Origin: Eledone cirrhosa
Lineage: Eukaryota
Assembly (NCBI GenBank): GCA_964016885.1
Contig: OZ024747.1
Location: forward strand, 48,918,001-48,982,000
DNA: 64,000 bases
Reading direction: 5' to 3'
How positions within the stretch are numbered: the first letter of the stretch is position 1; every line of letters starts with the position of its first letter. The notes beneath the pieces are model-generated. The model ran no database searches. It was not told where the DNA came from and was given only the letters and a program-made list of their open reading frames with translations. Made by a program: the position numbers and the translations under genes. Positions 1,346-39,152 of the stretch are shown here, one piece after another.

Positions 1346-1368
1346 TATATATATATATATATGTAAAA

Positions 1369-1555
1369 GGGCGGTGGTATGGCAGTATCGGTAGAGTGTC
1401 AGACACCATGCTTTGCAGCATAGAGTTATGGCCCTTTGTGTTCTGAGTTCAAATCTGCCGAGGCTAACTTTGCCTTTCATCCTTACGGGGTCGATAAAAT
1501 AAAGTACCAGTAATGCACTGGTGTAATCACTGGCCTTGTGTCAAAAGTAGAAACC
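1369..1555 (+). mobile_element. tRNA-derived SINE (major family)
   Basis: A-box-like tggcagtatcggtaga, B-box gagttcaaatc, conserved body actttgcctttcatccttacggggtcgataaaataaagtaccag; about 12 copies in the window. Confidence 0.85.
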
Positions 1556-1580
1556 ATATATATAGGAGAAACAATAGTAT

Positions 1581-2984
1581 CACTGATGATGTCAAAGGTG
1601 TTTGGCACTGATGATGTCAAAGGTGTTTGACACTGATGATGTCAAAGGTCTTTGACACTGATGATGTCAAGGGTGTTTGACACTGATGATGTCAAAAATG
1701 TTTGACACTGATGATTTCAAAGGTGCTTGACACTGATGATGTCGAAGGTGTTTGACACTGGTGATGTCAAAGGTGTTTGACACTGATGATGTCAAAGGTG
1801 TTTGACACTGATGATGTCAAAGGTGTTTGACACTGATGATGTCAAAGGTGTTTGACACTGATGATATCAAAGGTGTTTGACACTGATGATGCCAAAGGTG
1901 TTTGACATTGATGGTGTCAAAGGTGTTTGACACTGATGATGTCAAAGGTGTTTGACACTGATGATATCAAAGGTGTTTGACACTGATGATGTCAAAGGTG
2001 TTTGACACTGATGATGTCGAAGGTGTTTGACACTGATGATGTCAAAGGTGTTTGACACTGATGATGTCAAAGGAGTTTAACACTGATGATGTCAAAGGTG
2101 TTTGACACTGATGATGTCAAAGGTGTTTAACACTGAGGATGTCAAAGGTGTTTGACACTGATGATGTCAAAGGTGTTTGACACTGATGATGTCAAAGGTG
2201 TTTAACACTGAGGATGTCAAAGGTGTTTGACACTGATAATGTCAAAGGTGTTTGACACTGATGATGTCAAAGATGTTTGGCACTGATGATGTCAAAGGTG
2301 TTTGACACTGATGATGTCAAAGATGTTTGACACTGATGATGTCAAAGGTGTTTGACACTGATGATGCCAAAGGTGTTTGACACTGATGTTGTCAAAGGTG
2401 TTTGACACTGATGATGTCAAAGGTGTTTGACAATGATGATGTCAAAGGTGTTTAACACTGAGGATGTCAAAGGTGTTTGACACTGATGATGTCAAAGGTG
2501 CTTGACACTGATGATGTCAAAGGTGTTTGACACTGATGATGTCAAAGGTGTTTGACACTGATGATGTCAAAGGTGTTTGACACTGATGATGTCAAAGGTG
2601 TTTGACACTGATAATGTCAAAGGTGTTTGACACTGATGATGTCAAAGGTGTATGGCACTGATGATGTCAAAGGTGTTTGACACTGATGATGTCAAAGATG
2701 TTTGACACTGATGATGTCAAAGGTGTTTGACACTGATGATGCCAAAGCTGTTTGACACAGATGTTGTCAAAGGTGTTTGACACTGATGATGTCAAAGGTG
2801 TTTGACACTGATGATGTCAAAGGTGTTTGACACTGATGATGTCAAAGGTGTTTGACACTGATGAAGTCAAAGGTGTTTGACACTGATAATGTCAAAGGTG
2901 TTTGACACTGATGATGTCAAAGGTGTTTGACACTGATGATGTCAAAGGTGTTTGACACTGATGATGTCAAAGGTGTTTAACACT
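1581..2984 (+). repeat. 25-bp minisatellite, ~56 copies (cactgatgatgtcaaaggtgtttga)
   Basis: Direct tandem units with scattered point variants and no spacers. Confidence 0.97.
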
Positions 2985-3094
2985 ATGACTTATTAAAGTT
3001 ATATAAACAATTCACTATCCGGATGACTTCCAAAATCAATGGTTGCATTTTAATAGGGTACGTCAAAGCTTATTTGTAAAACTGTTATATATTG

Positions 3095-3159
3095 TATTTT
3101 GTCTGATGAAGGCATACCATAATTTAATTTGGTATCCCTGAAATATGTATAATGAAATA
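3095..3159 (+). ncRNA. Minimal type I hammerhead ribozyme (family B)
   Basis: stem I tattttgt/atgaaata; CTGATGA 3103-3109; stem II aggcatacca/tggtatccct; GAAA 3140; tatgta; TA. Confidence 0.75.
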
Positions 3160-3294
3160 AATATGGTTTTATAAATATAGTTTCCATTTATTAATAATTA
3201 ATATCGTATATCTACTCCAAATACTTGTCGAGTGCTTTATATCAGTTATAAAAATATTTACTTGTTGTATTCCAACAATTTTAAATAGAACTTT

Positions 3295-3396
<102 letters not shown>

Positions 3397-3558
3397 ACGT
3401 TTTTGAATTTGTTTTGCGCGATTTCTTATCTGAAAACGTGTGTTGAAAGATAATAAATAAAAAAAATAAAAACACACACACACACGGATGTAACGCATGC
3501 GCAAACTAAACGCAAAAACAAAATGTTCAAAGCAAAGACACACAAAGTAAAAAACCTA

Positions 3559-3601
3559 GTCACTGAGGAGGTCACAGAATGTGTGACGAAAGAGCTTTGA
3601 C
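3559..3601 (+). ncRNA. Minimal type I hammerhead ribozyme (family A)
   Basis: gtca-CTGAGGA-g-gtcaca(gaatg)tgtgac-GAAA-gagc-TT-tgac. Confidence 0.7.
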
Positions 3602-3724
3602 AATATATAAACAACCTTCCGGTTATCGAACGAACGAACGAACCAACCGGAAATTTATAATAAATTGAAGTGAAAACAAACAGGTGCGTGTGTTTCTATT
3701 GGCAACATGACCCTCCCTAAGTAT

Positions 3725-3773
<49 letters not shown>

Positions 3774-4010
3774 CGTGTAGTCTCGCAGAGTTCTTTCATC
3801 AAACACCTTTGCCATCATCAGTAATACTATTATTATGCCCCACCCCCTCGCTGTGTAGTACATTACAAAGGGGGGGGGGCATAATAGTGTGTATATCTAT
3901 ATTTTTAACTGTTGGTCAATTAGTGGTAAACATTGATATCCAACTAAACTAACTATAGGGATATAAAATAAACGGAAGCGAAAACCAACCCAAACCAAAC
4001 AGTGAGTGTG

Positions 4011-4197
4011 TATTGGCAGTACCGGTAGAGGGTCGGACGCCATGTTTGACGCATAGAGTTACGGCTCTTGCCATTCTGAGTTCAAATCCCGCCGAGGTTA
4101 ACTTTGCCTTTCATCCTTACGGGGTCGATAAAATAAAGTACCAGTAATGTACTGGGGGTAATTTGCTGGCCTTTCTGCCAAAAAGTAGAAACAATTA
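4011..4197 (+). mobile_element. tRNA-derived SINE (major family)
   Basis: Same body as 1369-1555. Confidence 0.85.
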
Positions 4198-4324
4198 TAT
4201 ATTCCTGGCAATATATTAACAATATGACTCTCCCCAAATATAACAATATATGTTTCAACACACGATTGCATATCAAAACCCTTGCAAAACACACACACAC
4301 ATATATATATATATATACATACAT

Positions 4325-4956: not shown

Positions 4957-5011
4957 ATACGCATGTATATATATATATATATATGTATGTATATATATAT
5001 ATATATATATA

Positions 5012-5785
5012 AGGTATCGGATGCTGAATTTGCCGACGACATAGTTTTGGTGACAAATACAGTGAAGGAGGCAGAGGATTTGATGCGGGAGGTTGAGACT
5101 GTGTCGATGAGTGGGGCTGAGAATGAATGAGACTAAAACAAAATATCTGGTAGAGAATGTTGAGAAGCCAGAGGGGATCACTAATGTAGGCGGGAAGCCG
5201 CTGGAATTGGTTGAGGACTTCCTGTATTTGGGAGCAAAGATTGGGAATACGGAAGATGATGTGGTTGAGAGGAAGAGCAAGGCCTGGGCGGCGTGTCACA
5301 GCTTGAGATCGGTGTGGAAGTCGGACCTTCGTAGAGACCTGAAAATCCGCCTCTTCATTGCTGTAGTGGAGTCTGTGCTGCTGTATGGGTCTGAGACTTG
5401 AACACTGACCAAGAGACTCACTCAGATGGTGGATGGGTGCTACACGAGAATGCTGAGGATGGCTCTGAATATTAATCAGTATACACTGAGGATGAAAAAC
5501 TCAGAGCTGTATGGGAGCATCCCAAAAGTCAGCTCAAAAGTGACACAGAGGAGACTGAGGTTGGCTGGACATGCTCACCGACATCCAGAGTTGACATTGC
5601 ACTCAGTGCTCCTTTGGGAGCCCCTACATGGACACACTAGAAGAGGAAGACCAAGGTTAACATATGTTGATGCCCTAAGGACAGACACTGGTCTGTTGGA
5701 GATGCAGGATATGGCAGCGATAATGAGGGACAGAGACCGCTGGAGAGAACTCGTCCATGGATCTCGGGAATTTTACCCGCCTTAG
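5012..5785 (+). pseudogene. 5'-truncated RTE-clade LINE, reverse transcriptase C-terminal part
   Basis: EFADDIVL, GLRMNETKTK, FLYLGA, VLLYGSET, RRLRLAGH, RGRPRLTYVD, MRDRDRWR motifs; frameshift near 5110 and in-frame stop near 5400. Confidence 0.9.
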
Positions 5786-5939
5786 ATATATATATATATA
5801 TATATGTATAAATGAAAAGTATAGAAATTGTTGTAGCGAGAAGCTAACAGTATTATATATATATATATATATATGTGTGTATGTGCGTGTCTATGTGTGT
5901 GTGTACATGTATGAATGTATGCATGTGTTCACGTGTACG

Positions 5940-28747: not shown

Positions 28748-28805
28748 GGCGAGCCATAACCAGCTTCCTTTCTTAACTTTAGGAAATGAGAATAAATATC
28801 GTTCG

Positions 28806-30258
28806 AAAAGTAATATATAGACAATACATGTATGTTTAGAAAAGTAATATATAGACAATACATGTATGTTTAGATAGTTATATATAGACAATACATGTAT
28901 GTTTAGATAGTTATATATAGACAATACATGTATGTTTAGAAAAGTAATATATAGACAATACATGTATGTTTAGATAGTTATATATAGACAATACATGTAT
29001 GTTTAGAAAAGTAATATATAGACAATACATGTATGTTTAGATAGTTATATATAGACAATACATGTATGTTTAGAAAAGTAATATATAGACAATACATGTA
29101 TGTTTAGATAGTTATATATAGACAATACATGTATGTTTAGAAAAGTAATATATAGACAATACATGTATGTTTAGATAGTTATATATAGACAATACATGTA
29201 TGTTTAGAAAAGTAATATATAGACAATACATGTATGTTTAGATAGTTATATATAGACAATACATGTATGTTTAGAAAAGTAATATATAGACAATACATGT
29301 ATGTTTAGAAAAGTAATATATAGACAATACATGTATGTTTAGATAGTTATATATAGACAATACATGTATGTTTAGAAAAGTAATATATAGACAATACATG
29401 TATGTTTAGATAGTTATATATAGACAATACATGTATGTTTAGAAAAGTAATATATAGACAATACATGTATGTTTAGATAGTTATATATAGACAATACATG
29501 TATGTTTAGAAAAGTAATATATAGACAATACATGTATGTTTAGAAAAGTAATATATAGACAATACATGTATGTTTAGATAGTTATATATAGACAATACAT
29601 GTATGTTTAGAAAAGTAATATATAGACAATACATGTATGTTTAGATAGTTATATATAGACAATACATGTATGTTTAGAAAAGTAATATATAGACAATACA
29701 TGTATGTTTAGATAGTTATATATAGACAATACATGTATGTTTAGAAAAGTAATATATAGACAATACATGTATGTTTAGAAAAGTAATATATAGACAATAC
29801 ATGTATGTTTAGATAGTTATATATAGACAATACATGTATGTTTAGAAAAGTAATATATAGACAATACATGTATGTTTAGATAGTTATATATAGACAATAC
29901 ATGTATGTTTAGAAAAGTAATATATAGACAATACATGTATGTTTAGATAGTTATATATAGACAATACATGTATGTTTAGAAAAGTAATATATAGACAATA
30001 CATGTATGTTTAGAAAAGTAATATATAGACAATACATGTATGTTTAGATAGTTATATATAGACAATACATGTATGTTTAGAAAAGTAATATATAGACAAT
30101 ACATGTATGTTTAGAAAAGTAATATATAGACAATACATGTATGTTTAGATAGTTATATATAGACAATACATGTATGTTTAGAAAAGTAATATATAGACAA
30201 TACATGTATGTTTAGAAAAGTAATATATAGACAATACATGTATGTTTAGCTAGTTATA
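28806..30258 (+). repeat. 33/34-bp minisatellite, 43 full units of two variants
   Basis: A=aaaagtaatatatagacaatacatgtatgtttag (34 bp), B=atagttatatatagacaatacatgtatgtttag (33 bp). Confidence 0.97.
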
Positions 30259-37473: not shown

Positions 37474-37587
37474 ATATATACTCCGGTGTGTTTGTGTGTG
37501 TGTTTTCACCATAACTTCAATAGCTAAAATGACTCCCATACGAAGATGGAATGGATGGACTAAAGCCATACGGACACCCAAGAACAA

Positions 37588-38991
37588 CCATCACATGAGA
37601 CAAATGATCGCACATGCCGTAGGGGCTAGTATTAAAACTACCCTAAAGGGCCACATGTTTAAATTTAATGAGAAACTTTCCACCCAGAATGAGGGAGCAG
37701 CCATTGGCGTCAGCATAGCTGGCGATGTTGCCAATCTATTTATGGTATGGTGGGAAAGGAGACTCAGAGAACTCCTAGAAGAGAACGCCATAGCCCTCGT
37801 TATGTACTCTCGTTACGTAGATGATATCAGTATAGTAATAAAAACACCCCCACAAGAGAGTACCACTAAAACTGAATGAGAAAATAACACAATGGAAAGC
37901 ATCCAGCAAATAGCTGACTCCATACACCAGAGCATGACAGTAACTGTTGACTACACTTCCAAACACCCTAACAATAGACTACCAGTCTTAGACACTGAAC
38001 TCTGATTAAACACTATAAACAAGAAAACCCAAATTCTCCACTCACATTATGCTAATCTCATTGCCTCCAAATACTTTATACACAAAAACTCAGCGAGTTT
38101 AATATTCTGACCGCAGCCTTGGTAAGAGTGATGAAGAATGTATCGCTCATGTGCGATCCTGAAATGGAAAGACTCATACGACACACCATCAATCGCATGC
38201 AGTTCTCTGGCTACAACCAAAGAGGTGTACAAGGGAACCACGGAGAAATATAAGACCCTCGTAGAGATGGACATGAAAGGGATTTGCCGATTGTACAGTA
38301 GCAAATAATGGAACCGCATAGATAGGACTAAACATAAGATAGGGAATGCCACTTCATGGTACGACAACCAGAGATGCCAGAGTGTCGTGTTTATGGATGC
38401 AACCTCTGGAGGGAAATTAGCTAACCAATTTAGAAAGGCCTTAAGAAGGACGCAATTAAATATTAAAGTGGTAGAAAAGCCAGGAACTACAATAAAATCC
38501 CTGATTAGCAAAATCCACTGTACTAATAAGAAAAGTGTTATATGTAGAATAAATCCACAAGTAAATTGTAAAACTAGGGAAAGGAATAGACCAAGCATGG
38601 GGTGAACTAAAAGGACAAAAAGACAGTTCGGTACTATATGAACACGCCAGACAAAGACATGATGGTAATATAGACAACATAGAAATTAAAATAATATCTA
38701 AACACAGAGATGACTCAACAGGTAGACAAATCAGAGAAGCTACTGAAAAAGAACTAAGAAAACCGAAGTTGAACAGAAAAAATAAATGGAATAACAACAA
38801 CAACCATACACAGACACACAATACTGACCTAACATAAATATAAATAAATATACACAGGTACAATAACAGCAACCATACATAAACACACACTAGTGAACAA
38901 AGATAGAATACAAACACACACAGACTCAGACACGAACACACACACACCGAACAAAAACACACACAAACGCATGCGCAATCAGAGATAAGAA

Positions 38992-39034
<43 letters not shown>

Positions 39035-39130
39035 AAATAAAAATGGAATAGACATTGCAATACAACGGGGGGGAAACATAAATGTACTACTGAGATGTCA
39101 CAGGTGTGCGATGAAAGAACTTTGATAGAC
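37588..39130 (+). pseudogene. Penelope-like element: decayed RT, linker, GIY-YIG C-terminus and pseudo-LTR
   Basis: QNEGAAIGVSIAGDVANLFM, YSRYVDDI, LPVLD, MQFSGY, KVVEKPG, EHARQRH..RQIREA..PKLNRK; decayed hammerhead at ~39085-39125. Confidence 0.9.
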
Positions 39131-39152
39131 TATATATATATTTATATCTATA

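What the first reader, a model, noticed from the sequence alone, without database searches (positions are those of the whole stretch)
1561..2984. 25-bp minisatellite that appears to be built from a hammerhead core plus stem II
Seen: each of ~56 units is CTGATGA followed by a 7-bp hairpin tgtcaaa-ggtg-tttgaca. This matches the 5' half of family A HHRs in this window (ctgagga-ggtcacagaatgtgtgac-GAAA at 3563; ctgagatgtcacaggtgtgcgat-GAAA at ~39090). The lead-in (ggagaaacaatagtatca) resembles the sequence upstream of family A cores at ~39070 and ~57200. No GAAA half follows. Inference: the array was seeded by reiterative copying or slippage inside a PLE ribozyme, giving a polymer of half-ribozymes. 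It would be inactive alone but might be completed in trans.
Basis: partly seen in the sequence, partly recalled or inferred. Interest (0 to 1): 0.75.

Follow-up and report, generated by a model that had tools for sequence, protein, structure and literature searches.

The report
Minisatellite grown from half a ribozyme
A 25-letter piece of a jumping gene's self-cutting RNA motif is repeated 56 times in a row at this one spot; it lacks the other half of the motif, is predicted not to cut, and likely grew as ordinary repeat DNA, as a far larger satellite elsewhere in this genome, built from the same half of a related motif, likely did too.

Summary
The array is real: 56 units of 25 bp (1583-2982), 3% diverged, found at this locus only. 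Each unit is the core plus stem II of a minimal hammerhead family of Penelope-like elements (1,629 genome matches), entered through the family's own 19-base lead-in. The GAAA half was likely lost when a young element of another family inserted into the array's right end through microhomology. A 15-unit block duplication, no sparing of the core, and a trans-active fold 9-22 kcal/mol above the best fold argue for DNA-level growth and no ribozyme role. Short duplications over hammerhead cores are common here (46 loci in one other family), and a satellite of about 477 kb on contig C28 is built from the same half of a related hammerhead and still ends in an intact copy. Verdict: a transposon-derived minisatellite, a new member of a known kind; trans completion is not supported. 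The scan noted similar Penelope-hammerhead minisatellites before in other genomes (unchecked notes).

The parts
1366..1557 (+). High-copy SINE-like repeat left of the array (tRNA-derived by recall, not tested)
   Evidence: BLAST hits at 76-91% in many unrelated loci; very high contig depth
1555..1563 (.). Short TA run, likely the left remnant of the insertion target
   Evidence: Sequence; family copies run into TA tracts after the hammerhead; target role inferred
1564..1582 (+). Native lead-in of the family hammerhead, including the 5' strand of stem I; the stub is 5'-truncated here
   Evidence: Aligns to family loci; same short form as L035 and L042
1583..2982 (+). 56 x 25-bp minisatellite: core CTGATGA + unpaired T + 6-bp stem II with GGTG loop + junction A
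   Evidence: single locus in the genome
2233..2782 (+). Block duplication at 15-unit spacing (units 27-33 repeated as units 42-48)
   Evidence: 6 shared variants at lag 15, permutation p = 0.004 in 20,000 shuffles
2977..2984 (+). Microhomology shared by the last unit and the 5' end of the inserted family-B element (8 of 8 as read; 7 of 8 against the commonest unit)
   Evidence: 18 of 19 family-B loci match from 2977 on
2977..3392 (+). Young, 5'-truncated family-B pLTR-like element with its own complete hammerhead motif (core at 3103) and TA tail (3298-3392)
   Evidence: 43 listed places at 97-100% over 2981-3075, 1,913 candidates of which 40 scored; up to 97% over 416 bases
3393..3758 (.). Sister-family element, likely two-armed, with a complete hammerhead motif at 3563-3591 (+), between TA tracts
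   Evidence: two-armed layout inferred from opposite-strand BLAST pieces
3778..3845 (-). Intact family hammerhead (core to GAAA 3821-3794) carrying the array's two stem II changes
   Evidence: Only exact match among 17 within one mismatch
3858..4290 (+). Head-to-head partner arm of the same family with its hammerhead deleted; a SINE-like repeat sits inside at about 4008-4200
37484..39140 (+). Decayed Penelope-like ORF followed by a pLTR with the same hammerhead family (core at 39090, one base missing): ties the family to PLEs
   Evidence: tblastn 52% over 391 aa to P0001; RVT_1 E = 1.1e-4, below cut-off; P0001 look-alikes carry RVT_1, HTH_animal and, in part, GIY-YIG

Best explanation
The array is a single-locus minisatellite whose unit is the catalytic core plus stem II of a Penelope-type minimal hammerhead; it likely grew by DNA-level slippage and unequal exchange, likely lost its GAAA half to a later insertion, and is predicted to have no ribozyme activity. 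Steps: (1) shown: a 5'-truncated stub of the pLTR family sits after a TA run. (2) inferred: a 25-base tandem duplication arose with only 1-2 bases of microhomology, either while the stub's 5' junction was formed or later, helped by the stem II hairpin. (3) shown in part: it expanded in steps, with mutated blocks re-duplicated. (4) inferred: a young family-B element inserted at the downstream TA tail and joined its 5' end to a unit by microhomology, deleting the last unit with GAAA, stem III and the cleavage site. (5) inferred: the array and the inverted intact neighbour share their two stem II changes through conversion between inverted copies or a common donor.
For: Descent: 1,629 family matches, control 0; lead-in and unit align; a PLE ORF lies directly upstream of the family hammerhead at window 39090 and in L035, L065 and L073. 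Single locus: 23 of 23, 21 of 21 and 15 of 15 matches lie in this array. Stepwise growth: lag-15 block, p = 0.004. No selection on the core: 7 of 23 distinct changes fall in 6 of 25 positions, 5.5 expected. Right end: family-B sequence starts at 2977; PLE 5' junctions by microhomology without TSD are described (PMC3846280, passages). Precedent in this genome for the lost state: L133 (3 x 43 bp), 46 of 57 family-B core duplications, and the C28 satellite all end in a complete hammerhead motif. Folding.
Against: The birth step is not seen; 1-2 bases of microhomology fit both a reverse-transcriptase slip and a DNA slip. The deleted 3' end is inferred: no pre-insertion allele was found. The neighbour's lead-in differs from the array's (G run in place of GAAA), so the two are not simple copies and step 5 is weak. 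Folding energies ignore tertiary contacts, proteins and co-transcriptional folding. Transcription is untested.
Confidence: 0.78

Rival explanations
1. The Penelope reverse transcriptase made most of the array in one event by telomerase-like reiterative copying of the 25-base stretch (or of a tiny circle) during insertion; later DNA turnover only reshuffled it.
For: The array starts within 19 bases of the stub's 5' truncation. Core duplications of 2-3 copies are common just 5' of intact hammerhead motifs (46 of 57 loci, 20 of these with an inverted core within 120 bases), which looks like stutter at the 5' junction. PLE RTs are kin of telomerase RT (PMC4209133, parts 1-2 read).
Against: 55 of 57 such duplications have only 2-3 cores. 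There is no alignment region longer than 1-2 bases. Shared variants recur at block spacings. The junction is unique in the genome.
Confidence: 0.13
2. The array works as a polymer of enzyme strands that cleave family transcripts in trans (I/II split format), or binds them as a decoy.
For: 48 of 56 cores are intact; the first unit keeps the native stem I strand; array RNA can pair with family RNA in non-catalytic ways.
Against: Internal units offer 2 bp of stem I; their own stem II arms compete; the active-like fold lies 13.9-22.4 kcal/mol (internal) and 9.3-11.7 (first unit) above the best fold. The array folds best as a rod that buries the cores (0 of 56 local hairpins in the MFE). Cores are not conserved. 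Intact minimal hammerheads need a dimer and cleave poorly (PMC4209133).
Confidence: 0.04
3. The stub never had a GAAA half: the duplication arose from a broken copy ending at stem II, and the family-B element merely landed next to it.
For: No trace of the family's 3' half is left right of the array.
Against: Retrotransposon stubs keep their 3' end; every comparable array checked to its end keeps the complete motif; the junction has microhomology as expected of a target deletion.
Confidence: 0.05

Closest known systems
Transposon-derived minisatellites (Ahmed and Liang 2012, PMC3389668: abstract and section 13 read; review PMC9659126: passages read)
   Same: A short internal piece of one dispersed element is tandemly duplicated, then expanded locally; most such births have no long flanking direct repeat.
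   Different: The source is a Penelope-type pLTR and the unit is half of a ribozyme; the review's main text has no mention of Penelope (0 occurrences).
Minimal type I hammerheads in pLTRs of Penelope-like elements (Cervera and de la Pena 2014, PMC4209133: parts 1-2 of 4 read)
   Same: The parent family has the core, an unpaired base before stem II, a G10.1-C11.1 pair, a short stem I and a tiny stem III; it occurs as solo copies and as close pairs on opposite strands.
   Different: The array units lack GAAA, stem III, the cleavage site and stem I.
Non-LTR retrozymes / hammerhead satellites (Li et al., bioRxiv 10.64898/2026.07.22.740005: parts 1-2 of 5 and Discussion read; supplements closed)
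   Same: Tandem array derived from a PLE terminal repeat.
   Different: Their definition needs a complete type I hammerhead in each unit (consensus 51-972 bp). Here the unit is 25 bp, no unit is complete, and the array is at one locus.

Membership tests
Transposon-derived minisatellite | Head-to-tail units of 10-100 bp | tested here: met
   56 x 25 bp
Transposon-derived minisatellite | Unit and flank match a contiguous part of a dispersed element | tested here: met
Transposon-derived minisatellite | Local stepwise expansion | tested here: met
   Single locus; block duplication
Transposon-derived minisatellite | Length variation between individuals | not testable with these tools
   No long reads from other individuals were served
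PLE minimal hammerhead (parent family) | CUGANGA, unpaired base, stem II, GAAA, short palindromic stem III, NUH, stem I | tested here: met
   constrained fold of L056 within 0.7 kcal/mol of its MFE. Rfam gave no hammerhead hit for an intact copy
PLE minimal hammerhead (parent family) | Sits in the repeat 3' of an RT plus GIY-YIG ORF | tested here: met
   ORF pieces upstream on the same strand at window 39090, L035, L065, L073. GIY-YIG rests on look-alike clusters of a homologue (11-77% of members), not on a direct Pfam hit
PLE minimal hammerhead (parent family) | Self-cleavage as a dimer | not testable with these tools
   Needs in vitro assay
Hammerhead ribozyme (array unit) | G12-A13-A14, stem III and cleavage triplet | tested here: not met
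   No GAAA in 56 units; no hammerhead among 41 weak Rfam matches
Non-LTR retrozyme | Complete type I hammerhead in at least two consecutive units | tested here: not met
   0 of 56 units complete
Non-LTR retrozyme | Dispersed copies of the same unit | tested here: not met
   Junction only at this locus
Non-LTR retrozyme | Circular RNA | not testable with these tools
   No RNA run could be laid

The most novel reading that the evidence does not exclude
Penelope hammerhead heads are a recurrent nursery for tandem repeats: the insertion machinery often stutters over the core, and the rare stutters that capture the whole stem II hairpin run away, giving this 1.4-kb minisatellite and a satellite of about 477 kb on C28 that is still bracketed by the two arms of its parent insertion in a satellite-rich domain. 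A ribozyme would thus have seeded chromosome-scale satellite DNA, with its birth site readable base by base.
Probability: 0.3. Interest if true: 0.65.

Novelty: new member of a known kind. Interest (0 to 1): 0.36.

Why it matters
The array itself is very likely inert. Its value is as a clean record of how a minisatellite is born: parent family, entry point, unit boundaries and later damage can all be read. With the census of small core duplications and the C28 satellite, it makes a standing question testable: which first duplications go on to expand (PMC3389668 says known models explain about 6% of transposon-derived repeats). It also warns that CTGATGA-plus-hairpin arrays can be mistaken for retrozymes.

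Tried and rejected
Rfam: no hammerhead match in the array, in an intact family copy or among the 150 of 428 window matches shown; uninformative for minimal hammerheads. Unrelated satellite family: rejected (against 10, 37). Assembly artefact: unlikely (varied units; contigs across junctions). Expression: no RNA holder listed, which is no evidence either way. Related organisms B-E: contigs covered only the family-B repeat (3016-3295), not the three array units sent; a hole proves nothing. A pre-expansion allele at the left junction was not seen in X1, X4, X9, X10 (two are reduced-representation libraries). A fixed birth boundary at the end of stem II: not supported, 3 of 46 family-B duplications end within 2 bases of it, and these are two 11-base stems and one poorly scored split (the pattern allowed units up to 52 bases, so long-stem cases with long lead-ins could be missed). 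Fold-back extension as the source of the junction letters: fits both large arrays, but the same letters are in the natural lead-in, so it is not diagnostic. Whether cores are duplicated more often than other pLTR parts was not tested. No PLE ORF was found beside the C28 satellite's ends or its C302 relative (no hits in L167, L223-L225). Paper searches listed no description of an array made of a hammerhead half; the library lacks most subscription journals, and the bioRxiv supplements were closed.

Full report
Observation. The array is as described. TRF reports period 25 and 56.4 copies. Cut in register there are 56 whole units at 1583-2982 with no indel; 23 are identical to the commonest unit and overall divergence is 3.0%. 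48 of 56 units keep CTGANGA, 42 of 56 can form the 7-bp hairpin, and none is followed by GAAA. The genome is an animal genome of 3.0 Gb; the best protein hit for a nearby ORF is named as from Octopus vulgaris, at 69% identity.

Parent family. A fuzzy search for the lead-in found an intact hammerhead motif with the array's stem II on the minus strand at 3794-3821. A pattern of unit plus GAAA gave 316 genome matches within two mismatches; the family's own pattern gave 1,629; both controls gave 0. The 56 loci compared share roughly -60 to +250 around the core. The motif reads stem I strand, CTGATGA, an unpaired T, a 6-bp stem II with a GGTG loop, GAAA, a tiny stem III, the cleavage site, stem I, then a TA run. 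This matches the minimal hammerheads of Penelope-like elements (PMC4209133, parts 1-2 read). The link to PLEs was tested: a decayed ORF at 37484-38578 matches P0001 at 52% over 391 aa and lies upstream of a family copy at 39090, and ORF pieces lie upstream on the same strand in L035, L065 and L073. The ORF's RT piece hits RVT_1 at E = 1.1e-4, below the cut-off; look-alike clusters of P0001 carry RVT_1, HTH_animal and in part GIY-YIG.

One locus. The exact unit (23 matches), the lead-in junction (1), the unit-to-unit junction allowing family variants (21) and a 100-base BLAST query (15 matches, 1 candidate) all fall in this array. The tool warns that counts can be lower bounds.

The private stem. 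The array differs from the family by a compensatory pair in stem II (C to A and G to T). Of 17 intact copies within one mismatch of the array-type 3' half, 10 carry only the first change, 4 only the second, one has a deletion plus the second, one unlinked copy (L110) has both with a further change, and the only exact match is the neighbour 810 bases from the array. Against about 1,600 copies this is unlikely by chance. The lead-ins differ, though: the neighbour and its partner arm have a G run where the array and the family have GAAA. Conversion between inverted copies or a shared donor is the likely cause; this is inference. If the two later insertions between them are removed, the array stub and the neighbour would face tail to tail across a short TA/GT tract (inferred).

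Why GAAA is missing. The 95 bases after the array match 43 listed places at 97-100%. In 18 of 19 loci examined the match begins at 2977, inside the last unit, and runs to the TA tail at up to 97% over 416 bases. So a young, 5'-truncated element of another hammerhead family is joined to the array through 8 shared bases. PLE 5' junctions by microhomology without target duplication are described (PMC3846280, passages). The simplest reading is that it inserted at the stub's TA tail and deleted the final, complete unit. Other arrays in this genome show that end state intact (below).

How it grew. Six variants recur at a spacing of 15 units (p = 0.004, 20,000 shuffles); units 27-33 are repeated as 42-48, and a two-unit variant pair occurs three times. 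Blocks were thus copied after they had mutated, as in slippage, unequal exchange or conversion. The core is not spared: 7 of 23 distinct changes hit its 6 positions, 5.5 expected. As single-stranded DNA the unit hairpin folds at -4.7 kcal/mol against -3.2 for the family stem, which may favour slippage (inference).

Function. As RNA the array folds best into a long rod, because each core is flanked by complementary arms; no unit forms its local hairpin in the MFE. A forced trans-active arrangement with a family or neighbour RNA lies 9.3-11.7 kcal/mol (first unit) or 13.9-22.4 (internal units, 2 bp of stem I) above the best fold; the same constraint costs an intact copy 0.7 in cis (linker approximation, no tertiary terms). 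Intact minimal hammerheads already need a dimer and cleave poorly (PMC4209133). Trans completion is therefore not supported. Transcription is untested.

Recurrence in the genome. A tandem-core pattern for related families gave 3 matches at 2 loci. L133 has three 43-base units ending in a complete hammerhead motif. L135 lies in a satellite on C28 from 21,471,691 to about 21,948,350, about 477 kb or roughly 11,000 units of 44 and 40 bases. I read 90 kb continuously (2,066 cores), 12 of 12 spot samples inside the span and both ends; the rest is unread. Its unit is lead-in, CTGAAGA and a whole stem II, with no GAAA after stem II in the 90 kb. Its last unit is completed by GAAA and the family tail; its other end abuts an inverted arm of the same family, 82% like a two-armed copy on C302. 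That this parent is a PLE repeat is inferred from its layout; no ORF was found beside it. A third pattern, for family-B cores, gave 65 matches against 3 for the control, at 57 loci, all examined: 48 have two cores, 7 three, and two are longer arrays (10 and 23 copies) without a recognised terminal hammerhead; 46 of 57 end in a complete motif, 20 of those 46 have an inverted core nearby, and the truncated copies stop 0-33 bases after the core (median 7.5), 3 of 46 near the end of stem II. So small duplications over the core are common with scattered ends, while both large arrays with a clear hammerhead parent contain the whole hairpin. That is two cases, with no control for other pLTR parts, so it is a lead only.

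Comparison. The array meets the tested features of a transposon-derived minisatellite (PMC3389668, abstract and section 13; PMC9659126, passages). It fails the definition of a non-LTR retrozyme, which needs complete hammerheads in consecutive units (bioRxiv 10.64898/2026.07.22.740005, parts 1-2 and Discussion; that paper already proposes local amplification of PLE termini into tandem repeats). Eight paper searches listed no array made of a hammerhead half. From the other papers listed I saw only titles and abstract starts, except PMC11167929 and PMC6962438 (passages; nothing bearing on this). Earlier notes of this scan describe similar dead Penelope-hammerhead minisatellites in other genomes (unchecked); none matched this array or the C28 satellite by place or sequence.

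Verdict. Observation confirmed; origin confirmed and sharpened; function not supported. New member of a known kind, interest 0.36. The C28 satellite is the more striking object and deserves its own follow-up.

Noticed in passing
G000:C28:21471691-21948350 (L156, L158-L165, L213, L223): Satellite of about 477 kb, 44/40-bp unit, made of lead-in + hammerhead core + whole stem II; one end finishes in a complete hammerhead motif, the other abuts an inverted arm of the same family. Other large satellites lie on both sides (L191-L193, L207-L210).
   Followed up: partly
G000:C302:309400-309800 (L167, L225): Two-armed copy of the C28 satellite's parent family; one arm has the 44-bp lead-in form, the other the 40-bp form.
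   Followed up: partly
57 loci (L226-L289): Two- and three-copy duplications over family-B hammerhead cores, mostly just 5' of an intact motif and often beside an inverted arm.
   Followed up: yes
L258 (C10:3281000-3281460) and L246 (C6:about 12042850-12043200): Arrays of 23 x 20 bp and 10 x 34 bp containing TTTGTCTGATGA; a hammerhead origin was not established.
   Followed up: no
L133 (C9:31430305-31430440): Three 43-bp units ending in an intact sister-family hammerhead motif.
   Followed up: partly
window 3826-3885: Both arms of the head-to-head pair have a G run where the family has GGGAGGAAAC, like A-to-G editing of the template RNA; the + arm has lost its whole hammerhead between the stem I strands.
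   Followed up: partly
window 37484-39140: 5'-truncated, decayed Penelope-like element with stops and frameshifts and its pLTR.
   Followed up: partly
window 5011-5813: Reverse-transcriptase fragment of a LINE (RTE-like by recall), 95-97% like pieces in L053 and L071.
   Followed up: no
window 28805-30249: AT-rich minisatellite with nested periods of 67, 168 and 235 bp.
   Followed up: no
window 375, 3103, 15431, 16376, 28529, 35610, 36847, 36935, 45685, 57617, 58013, 62394: At least 12 further hammerhead-like motifs of several families in this 64-kb window.
   Followed up: no
L115/L116 (C18:18677000-18680000): A 994-bp tandem duplication holding four family hammerheads in alternating orientation.
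   Followed up: no
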